Of a DNA stretch of 64,000 nucleotides, positions 55,856 through 56,358 are shown one piece after another (positions within the stretch are counted from its first letter, which is position 1; every line of letters starts with the position of its first letter). The stretch is from Eledone cirrhosa (lineage: Eukaryota). A model generated the notes under the pieces. That model was not told where the DNA came from. It worked only from the letters and a program-made list of their open reading frames with translations, and did not search any database. A program made the translations under genes and the position numbers. The stretch spans positions 8,308,001 through 8,372,000 of the forward strand of contig OZ024741.1 of the NCBI GenBank assembly GCA_964016885.1, read 5' to 3'.

Positions 55856-55918
55856 CATTCATATATATATATATATATATAATATAAGATCAAAAGATGG
55901 TTAAAGGAGTTCAATATA

Positions 55919-55985
55919 TTTTATTATGCGCATTTCAAAAACAAACATCATCAAACAATAATATTTGTGTTTTCATCAGATAAAA
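55919..55985 (-). ncRNA. Hammerhead ribozyme (left arm)
   Basis: Reverse complement of 56110..56176. Confidence 0.8.
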
Positions 55986-56109
55986 CAGGAGAACATGATA
56001 TGAAGGCTAAAAAAACACTTGTTGATAGTGCAGTTTTAAATCAACATATGTTGATTTAAAACTGCACTATCAACAAGTGTTTTTTTAGCCTTCATATCAT
56101 GTTCTCCTG

Positions 56110-56176
56110 TTTTATCTGATGAAAACACAAATATTATTGTTTGATGATGTTTGTTTTTGAAATGCGCATAATAAAA
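56110..56176 (+). ncRNA. Hammerhead ribozyme (right arm)
   Basis: ttttat-CTGATGA-aaacacaaatattatt gttt gatgatgtttgttttt-GAAA-tgcgca-TA-ataaaa. Confidence 0.8.
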
Positions 56177-56358
56177 TATATTGAACTCCTTTAACCATCT
56201 TTTGATCTTATATTATGCATACTCCAGTCCCACAAACTGTAGAGTGCTTCTTATCCGATATCTGCATTGCTTTATTGTACTACAATAAAACTCACCTCCT
56301 ACATATATATATATATATATATATATACATACATACATTCATATATATATATATATAT

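What the first reader, a model, noticed from the sequence alone, without database searches (positions are those of the whole stretch)
55879..56304. Spacerless 338-bp palindrome placing a hammerhead on both polarities
Seen: exact head-to-head inverted duplication of the first ~169 bp of a 255-bp element, with an intact HHR on each strand. Inference: a transcript from either strand would be a long dsRNA rod containing one ribozyme and its antisense, similar to the ambisense layout of viroid-like RNAs. It would also be a candidate ADAR/siRNA substrate and a cruciform site. Fold-back priming during PLE-type retrotransposition could produce it.
Basis: partly seen in the sequence, partly recalled or inferred. 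Interest (0 to 1): 0.75.

Follow-up and report, generated by a model that had tools for sequence, protein, structure and literature searches.

The report
Twin-primed Penelope retrotransposon mini-insertion
This perfect hairpin is two head-to-head copies of the ribozyme-bearing front end of a very common Penelope-like jumping gene, one of over seven hundred with the same centre in this genome, likely made when both ends of a DNA cut each copied the element's RNA up to its predicted capped start, which would explain how this class of elements builds its mirror-image insertions.

Summary
The palindrome is real: 55879-56216, 169-bp arms, no mismatch, no spacer, a type I hammerhead motif on each strand. 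It is neither unique nor viroid-like. It is the smallest insertion of a Hydra-clade Penelope-like retrotransposon (17,913 hammerhead-core matches; 800-aa ORF, best fold match telomerase RT). 716 loci share this exact centre, and these palindromes interleave with long copies on a tree, so they form again and again. Head-to-head PLE insertions with hammerheads on opposite strands are published (PMC3846280, PMC4209133, PMC8557442). A read-through RNA would bury the ribozyme in a rod. The informative part is mechanistic: 39 of 43 two-arm insertions have one arm ending near +170 and one at +256; in 22 of 39 the arms are staggered, which fold-back of one strand cannot give; about 55% of copies break exactly at one site, where 1,994 of 4,057 carry a non-parental G, as expected from copying an mRNA cap. 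Best reading: twin priming and joining at the RNA's start (inferred; no RNA data). This scan noted the same reading earlier at other loci of this genome.

The parts
55464..55878 (.). Left target flank: (TA)n/(TACA)n microsatellite between two copies of a ~670-bp host repeat
   Evidence: unit anchors at 54857, 55463, 56360
55879..56049 (-). Short arm: element +1 to about +171 on the minus strand; its 3' end (TA-rich) joins the left microsatellite; inferred cDNA primed at the inner start site
   Evidence: WIN pair -1..177 / -1..258; short-end class in 47 of 100 copies
55919..55985 (-). Mirror copy of the type I hammerhead motif; predicted cleavage after 55925
56045..56050 (.). Palindrome centre CATATG; the four bases 56046-56049 are shared by both arms. 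Position +1 (56046 on +, 56049 on -) is the family's 5' break hot spot and inferred capped transcription start
56046..56216 (+). Long arm, duplicated part: element +1 to +171 (pLTR), 100% identical to long parent-contiguous copies L043 and L062
56110..56176 (+). Type I hammerhead motif: stem I 56110-56115/56171-56176, core 56116-56122 and 56159-56161, stem II 56123-56158, palindromic stem III 56162-56169; predicted cleavage after 56170 (element +125); predicted to need a dimer
   Evidence: PMC4209133
56217..56304 (+). One-sided tail, 86 bp (+172 to +257, plus 2 bases shared with the target); in tandem parents it continues into the ORF; inferred stretch between the two reverse-transcription start sites
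   Evidence: long-end class 45 of 100, 3 of 100 run on into the ORF
56305..56359 (.). Right target flank: (TA)n microsatellite, then the next host-repeat copy at 56360
25593..25850 (+). Second, older single-arm copy of the same family (87.5% identical), also starting at +1 after TA repeats and ending at the long end

Best explanation
The palindrome is a dead, minimal insertion of a Hydra-clade Penelope-like retrotransposon, likely written in one event by twin priming at the two ends of a cut in a (TA)n repeat. Shown: the parent element, the two fixed 3' ends, the shared 5' break site, the extra G, the staggered arms in sister insertions, and repeated independent formation. Inferred steps: (1) the element is transcribed from +1 of its pLTR into a capped RNA that the hammerhead has not cut; (2) the GIY-YIG domain cuts both strands in (TA)n; (3) one DNA end primes reverse transcription at about +170 and the other at +256 of the same or a sister RNA; (4) when priming falls in the RNA's 5' pLTR both cDNAs run off the capped end, often copying the cap as an extra C; (5) the two cDNA 3' ends anneal through the self-complementary ATAT and are filled in, giving a spacerless head-to-head palindrome with a one-sided tail. 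The two hammerheads are passengers; a read-through RNA would bury them in double-stranded RNA.
For: Parent: 800-aa ORF with RT motifs, DKT, CxCx5C linker and C-terminal GIY-YIG-type motif; model pLDDT 72, best PDB matches are telomerase RTs; features fit the Hydra clade as described in PMC8557442 section 11. Copy number 17,913 exact core matches, 0 for the reversed control. Ends: of the first 100 copies on C1, 47 end at +165 to +177, 45 at +255/256, 3 continue into the ORF, 5 elsewhere; 87 of the 97 non-tandem ends abut TA repeats. Pairs: 39 of 43 two-arm insertions have one end of each kind (p=3e-8); 22 of the 39 are staggered, 7 of these with the long-end arm starting at +161 or later. Hot spot: 4,057 + 1,807 copies lack the parental base(s) directly before +1 against 4,734 parent-contiguous (55%); none of the 100 rows listed has parental upstream sequence (by eye); 98 of 100 listed copies that hold -8 continue to -22 (by eye). 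Extra G: 1,994 of 4,057 where the parent has C; at the control site 5 of 23 junctions (by eye; Fisher p=0.011); G at -2 in only 10 of 100 rows (by eye). In 12 of 12 asymmetric G-arm junctions the complete arm has the short end and the long-end arm is the cut-short one (4 of these loci also), as expected if the +256 cDNA trails behind the +170 cDNA on one RNA. No hot spot at the predicted ribozyme cut: 23 junction rows, about 100-fold fewer after normalising for family coverage. Arms of one insertion differ by 1.3% against 7.4% between insertions. Palindromes are not one clade (p-AU 3.3e-5). In vitro, a Poseidon PLE protein cuts and extends both strands, starts at two internal sites that bound the tail and prefers uncleaved RNA (PMC11167929, parts 1-2 read). 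An extra G from cap copying is reported for L1 RT (passages in PMC4038843).
Against: No RNA evidence for the start site or the cap: both are read from DNA junctions alone. Part of the G excess has other explanations: of the 45 G rows among 100, 9 can be the partner arm's complement of the parental C, 4 are short tandem duplications and 10 are also templated by the partner arm; 22 remain unexplained otherwise (by eye). +1 lies in a 6-bp palindrome, which could itself attract joins. 7 of 39 pairs are nested and 10 symmetric, which fold-back would also give, and the window's own copy is symmetric and has no extra G. Near-identity of arms fits fold-back as well as a shared RNA. 2 pairs have two long ends and 2 have two short ends. 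The arm chaining was automatic, with known slips (L066 called nested but complex, L036 counted twice, L097 complex); 7 pairs and 25 single arms were left out of the 43. The tail is 86 nt, not the 30-40 nt described for other PLEs.
Confidence: 0.72

Rival explanations
1. Fold-back (self-priming): one cDNA primed at +256 reaches +1, snaps back on the CATATG end and copies itself as far as +170, or an antisense RNA self-primes as proposed in PMC3846280; staggered sister insertions would then come from later one-sided deletions at unstable palindrome centres. Same parent element and same passenger status of the hammerheads.
For: The window's copy and 10 of 39 unselected pairs are symmetric, 7 are nested; arms are nearly identical (17 of 42 identical); the centre is a 6-bp palindrome of the parent; self-priming is the published interpretation of head-to-head junctions (PMC3846280, Discussion read).
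Against: 22 of 39 pairs are staggered and 7 have a long-end arm that is almost only tail, absent from the other arm. Deletion after insertion should hit either arm, but 12 of 12 asymmetric G junctions lose sequence from the long-end arm only and leave the other arm intact to +1. Many centres carry untemplated or asymmetric filler. A one-pair stem around a 4-nt loop is a weak primer (inference).
Confidence: 0.2
2. A self-propagating palindromic mini-element (MITE- or retrozyme-like) that moves as a 424-bp unit, possibly through a rod-shaped RNA with ribozymes in both polarities.
For: 716 loci share the exact centre; 9 of 10 loci chosen for that centre show the same arm ends.
Against: Palindromes interleave with long copies (10 label changes, shuffled mean 8.8; one clade rejected, p-AU 3.3e-5; each palindrome is as close to a long copy as to another palindrome). 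Centres vary (1,952 loci with 0-24 nt between the arm anchors, 716 exact). The rod abolishes the hammerhead fold. No tandem arrangement.
Confidence: 0.04
3. Library fold-back or assembly chimera at this one locus.
For: Perfect palindrome between microsatellites; no raw read of this individual spanning the locus could be examined.
Against: Hundreds of loci break at the same base with family-specific arm ends; host sequence on the two sides is not mirrored; arms of older copies have diverged; contigs of run X1 hold one record across the centre (56010-56085, 6 differences) and 13 of 15 listed joints start at 56044-56049 (X1 may be the assembly's own sample).
Confidence: 0.03

Closest known systems
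Hydra clade of Penelope-like elements (Craig et al. 2021, PMC8557442; includes Hydra-1_Obim)
   Same: Single ORF with RT and C-terminal GIY-YIG-type domain, DKT motif, CxCx5C linker, CxxC and CxH around the conserved E and N, hammerhead near the 3' end, (TA)n targets.
   Different: A family not among those curated there (its stem III motif has 0 hits in the supplement; Hydra-1_Obim has another hammerhead); unit is 3,710 bp with a 1-kb 3' UTR against 'generally <3 kb'; RW(T/I) instead of RWK; about 70-aa Asn/Thr-rich insert before the linker.
PLE insertions with an inverted 5'-truncated copy and a one-sided tail (PMC8557442 fig. 2 legend; PMC3846280; dual min-HHRs on opposite strands 100-700 bp apart in PMC4209133)
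   Same: Head-to-head arms, palindromic junction, tail on one arm only, hammerheads on both strands.
   Different: Here both arms stop at one base in a large share of copies, with an extra G; the tail is 86 nt; the published reading of the junction is self-priming on an antisense template, which the staggered arms contradict.
Poseidon element PAc of Anolis in vitro (PMC11167929)
   Same: Cuts and extends both strands at AT-rich DNA, two internal RT start sites bounding the tail, uncleaved RNA as template, predicted dimer.
   Different: Another clade; in the parts read the paper does not assign one start site to each target end or derive the inverted structure from it.
L1 twin priming (Ostertag and Kazazian 2001; mechanism recalled, only the reference line was seen)
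   Same: Two target ends prime two cDNAs whose 3' ends are joined by microhomology, giving an inversion.
   Different: In L1 the second priming is opportunistic and occasional; here both start sites are fixed, two-arm insertions are the rule and the arms overlap into palindromes.
Ambisense ribozyme-bearing viroid-like circular RNAs (recalled) and animal non-LTR retrozymes (bioRxiv 10.64898/2026.07.22.740005, passages)
   Same: A hammerhead motif readable on each strand; small size; PLE ancestry in the case of retrozymes.
   Different: Chromosomal DNA insertion, exact duplicate rather than two ribozymes in a unique rod, no tandem or circular unit, ribozyme fold excluded by the rod, no own lineage.

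Membership tests
Hydra-clade PLE (parent element) | Single ORF with telomerase-like RT | tested here: met
   800-aa ORF in L031; model's top three PDB matches are TERT, E 3.5e-8 to 1.4e-7. Pfam gave no hit at cut-off and the PDB sequence search none.
Hydra-clade PLE (parent element) | C-terminal GIY-YIG endonuclease without CCHH, with CxxC and CxH around conserved E and N | tested here: met
   By motif in alignment A1 (LIYEC...YFG, R, E, N; CNLC and CLH). The domain was not searched as a separate fold.
Hydra-clade PLE (parent element) | DKT in place of DKG; CxCX5C linker | tested here: met
   SDKT and CNCRIKNKC in the L031 product.
Hydra-clade PLE (parent element) | N-terminal RWK motif | tested here: inconclusive
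   RWT in L031, RWI in L044 and L046; RWK in most homologues at the same column.
Hydra-clade PLE (parent element) | Hammerhead in the pLTR and insertion into (TA)n | tested here: met
   87 of 97 non-tandem ends abut TA repeats.
Hydra-clade PLE (parent element) | Placement in the Hydra clade by RT phylogeny | not tested
   Reference Hydra sequences were seen in the supplement but were not brought into a tree.
PLE inverted insertion | Inverted 5'-truncated copy head-to-head with the direct copy; tail on one side | tested here: met
   tail 86 nt instead of 30-40.
PLE inverted insertion | Target-site duplication | not testable with these tools
   Both flanks are microsatellite.
Type I (dimer-dependent) hammerhead ribozyme | Conserved core with stems I and II and a short palindromic stem III | tested here: met
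   stem III forms an 8-bp intermolecular duplex (-10.5 kcal/mol) but not in the monomer.
Type I (dimer-dependent) hammerhead ribozyme | Self-cleavage | not testable with these tools
   No excess of copies starting at the predicted cut; this says that cut RNA is rarely a template, not that it never cuts.
Ambisense viroid-like RNA | Ribozyme able to fold in each polarity of a rod-like unit | tested here: not met
   Hammerhead stems I-III have pairing probability 0.0 in the 424-nt read-through; forced fold is 97 kcal/mol worse (equilibrium only, co-transcriptional folding not modelled).
Ambisense viroid-like RNA | Circular RNA replicated RNA-to-RNA | not testable with these tools
   No RNA data could be examined.
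Animal non-LTR retrozyme | Head-to-tail tandem repeats of a 170-400-nt hammerhead unit | tested here: not met
   The two copies are head-to-head; tandem copies found (L044-L046) have the 3.7-kb period of the parent.
Self-propagating palindromic mini-element | Palindromic copies form their own lineage | tested here: not met
   One clade rejected, p-AU 3.3e-5, 12 palindromes against 17 long copies.

The most novel reading that the evidence does not exclude
Twin priming is the standard integration route of Penelope-like elements: a dimeric RT-endonuclease extends both ends of a double-strand cut from two fixed sites on one capped, uncleaved RNA, the inner site first; the tail is the distance between the sites, the inverted copy is the second cDNA, and thousands of short palindromes mark the element's capped start to the base. 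This would replace the antisense self-priming model and make every such palindrome a fossil 5' RACE.
Probability: 0.55. Interest if true: 0.65.

Novelty: new member of a known kind. Interest (0 to 1): 0.42.

Why it matters
As an object it is ordinary: one of hundreds of by-products of an abundant retrotransposon, not a viroid-like RNA device. Its value is as a natural experiment. How PLEs make tandem and inverted insertions is named as an open question in PMC8557442 and PMC3846280. The junction statistics of this family give a specific, testable answer (one fixed start per target end, run-off at a capped start, joining by microhomology) that links the in vitro findings of PMC11167929 to genome structure. 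A side point: about two thousand near-perfect 170-bp hairpins per genome are potential double-stranded RNA sources wherever they lie in introns, which was not tested.

Tried and rejected
DNA search of G000 with the 255-bp element returned nothing (common words are skipped), so exact patterns were used instead. Rfam: no hit at gathering score, only hairpin chance hits at E<=10. Pfam found no family for the ORF or 4 homologues; PDB sequence search found nothing relevant; tblastn against phages no match. Sequencing runs: no RNA holder listed, so expression, small RNAs and A-to-I editing are untested. Raw Hi-C reads of run X22 gave 0 laid reads, no test; no listed contig spans the whole locus. Idea that 5' breaks pile up at the ribozyme cut: rejected for this family. 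Idea that arms come from different subfamilies (two unrelated RNAs): not supported, only L096 looks discordant among 42. One search was meant as a break-count control at -8 but mostly caught a subfamily variant; it is used only for the 98 of 100 read-through count. The first 5'-end mapping was noisy for the divergent subfamily and for arms that extend into the mirror arm; only its 3' ends are used. Papers on L1 twin priming (PMC311219) and L1 cap G (PMC1190285) are not held. Literature searches for a published twin-priming or capped-start model of PLE inversions: searches found none, but the library lacks most subscription papers. Look-up of earlier findings by this sequence returned nothing.

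Full report
Observation. The inverted repeat is exact about the 56047/56048 axis for 169 bp on each side, 55879-56216, with no spacer. The right arm continues for 86 bp to 56302-56304, and both outer ends abut (TA)n. A type I hammerhead motif lies at 56110-56176 on + and mirrored at 55985-55919 on -. Rfam does not call it; the assignment rests on the core, stem I, a stem II that is kept by pair-preserving changes in 30 distinct variants and a palindromic stem III of the kind that works only as a dimer (PMC4209133, first part and passages read). The insertion sits in the microsatellite between two copies of an unrelated ~670-bp repeat whose other copies lack it.

Parent element. The window lies in a 3.0-Gb genome (earlier scan notes call it an octopus; not tested here). 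An exact pattern for the hammerhead core has 17,913 matches, 0 for the reversed control. I fetched the surroundings of all first 100 matches on contig C1. Long copies carry one ORF of about 800 aa, a 1-kb 3' UTR and then the same 257-bp segment, which in tandem copies runs on into the next ORF; the unit is 3,710 bp. [quoted passage not shown] These are the features given for the Hydra clade of Penelope-like elements (PMC8557442, section 11, passages and supplement rows read). It is not Hydra-1_Obim. No RT tree was made. The window's long arm is 100% identical over 255 columns to two long copies, so the insertion is young.

The palindrome is common and is made anew. 716 loci have the same exact centre and 1,952 have it with 0-24 bases between the anchors. 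On a tree of 29 long-end arms (12 palindromes, 17 long copies; 4 of 33 intended loci gave no arm) the palindromes need 10 label changes against a shuffled mean of 8.8, and one clade is rejected (p-AU 3.3e-5). So there is no separate palindromic lineage. Head-to-head junctions with palindromes, one-sided tails and hammerheads on opposite strands 100-700 bp apart are all described for PLEs (PMC3846280, passages and Discussion; PMC4209133; PMC8557442).

Two fixed 3' ends, one per side. Of the 100 copies 47 end at +165 to +177, 45 at +255/256, 3 run into the ORF and 5 end elsewhere (+1 = 56046). Automatic chaining gave 50 head-to-head pairs and 25 single arms in the unselected set; leaving out 3 pairs at a locus edge and 4 with an unclassed end, 39 of 43 have one end of each kind, 2 have two long and 2 two short ends (p=3e-8). 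Among the 39, 10 are symmetric, 7 nested and 22 staggered (the short-end arm reaches further 5'), 7 of them with a long-end arm that starts at +161 or later. A folded-back strand can only copy what it already holds, so staggered pairs need two priming events or a later deletion. Known slips of the chaining: L066, L097 are complex and L036 is counted twice. Among 30 loci picked for a G before +1 (29 arms scored, 27 with one end of each kind), 15 are symmetric and 12 asymmetric; in all 12 the arm that is complete to +1 has the short end (4 of the 12 are also). Random deletion would not be so one-sided; a +256 cDNA trailing a +170 cDNA on the same RNA would (inference). Arms of one insertion differ by 1.3% (17 of 42 identical) against 7.4% between insertions, so both come from the same source; this does not separate one RNA, two sister RNAs or fold-back.

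One 5' break site with an extra G. For the 20-mer that starts at +1, 4,734 copies continue into the parent's upstream sequence, 4,057 are preceded by A, G or T instead of the parental C and 1,807 by a non-parental base plus C: about 55% break here (classes not exhaustive). None of the 100 rows listed shows parental upstream sequence, whereas 98 of 100 listed copies that hold -8 continue to -22; both counts are by eye. At the predicted ribozyme cut (+125/+126) there are 38 matches, 15 point variants and 23 junctions (by eye), about 100-fold fewer after allowing for the share of copies that carry each word (46 and 28 of 100). G stands before +1 in 1,994 of 4,057, against 5 of 23 at the control site (p=0.011) and 10 of 100 at position -2 (by eye). 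Of the 45 G rows, 23 have another possible source and 22 do not (by eye). An extra G at the 5' end is what copying of an m7G cap leaves (passages in PMC4038843), and the sequence around +1 fits an initiator consensus (recalled). I read +1 as the capped start and the template as uncleaved RNA. This is inference from DNA only.

Mechanism. Most likely (0.72): both strands of a (TA)n target are cut, each end primes a cDNA at one of two fixed sites, and the cDNA 3' ends are joined by microhomology. Priming in the RNA's downstream pLTR gives long arms; priming in the 5' pLTR gives run-off at the cap and, through the self-complementary ATAT at +1 to +4, the spacerless palindrome seen here. The in vitro behaviour of a Poseidon PLE (both strands cut and extended, two starts bounding the tail, uncleaved RNA preferred; PMC11167929, parts 1-2 of 4 read) fits each step. 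The rival is fold-back or antisense self-priming with later deletions (0.2); it cannot be excluded for this symmetric locus but fails for the family. I found no published twin-priming or capped-start account for PLE inversions in searches; the library lacks most subscription papers, and supplements of the bioRxiv preprint on retrozymes (passages only) were not seen.

The viroid analogy. A read-through RNA folds into a rod of -278.6 kcal/mol; with hammerhead stems I and II forced it is -181.8, and the helices have pairing probability 0.0 (equilibrium model). Each transcript has one sense hammerhead only, which would need a partner for stem III. There is no tandem or circular unit and no own lineage. 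The double-stranded RNA, editing and cruciform ideas remain untested.

Artefact check. Repetition at 716 loci with family-specific arm ends, unmirrored host flanks and diverged arms in older copies argues against a chimera. Contigs of run X1 include one record across the centre and 13 of 15 listed joints start at 56044-56049 (11 more joints not shown; X1 may be the assembly's own sample). No read spanning this locus was available.

Earlier notes. My reading was written down before the look-up. Several unreviewed notes of this scan reach the same reading at other loci of this genome; they are not independent support.

Verdict. Observation confirmed; interpretation partly supported; new member of a known kind; interest 0.42, carried by the mechanistic signal of the family rather than by this locus.

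Noticed in passing
window 53476-56563: Four copies (53476, 54187, 54857, 56360) of a ~670-bp unit separated by (TA)n/(TACA)n; two copies end early into microsatellite. Probably another microsatellite-targeting mobile element; it hosts the palindrome.
   Followed up: partly
window 53174-53226 (+): A second, unrelated minimal hammerhead-like motif (CUGAUGA, a hairpin, GAAAU, with a 6-bp flanking stem) seen by eye; it seems one base short at the cleavage triplet.
   Followed up: no
window 25593-25850 (+): Older single-arm copy of the same family, 87.5% identical, starting at +1 and ending at the long end.
   Followed up: yes
L036:876-8002 (G000:C1:18485600-18494476): A roughly 7-kb inverted duplication carrying two mirrored two-arm insertions.
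   Followed up: no
L031:1918-4317, residues about 575-655: Asn/Thr-rich, low-confidence insert of about 70 aa before the CxCx5C linker, absent from 13 homologues; recalls the N-rich inserts of rotifer Penelopes in PMC3846280.
   Followed up: no
L031:4630-5320: The 3' UTR holds internal direct repeats of about 230 bp directly upstream of +1, which differ in number between subfamilies; a candidate promoter region.
   Followed up: no
L096 and L057: Two-arm insertions with equal ends (both short, both long); L096 arms differ at 8 of 100 positions, four at sites variable in the family, a possible case of two different template RNAs.
   Followed up: partly
window 57460-58613 and 59206-60000: Tandem arrays with 61-bp and 21-bp periods.
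   Followed up: no
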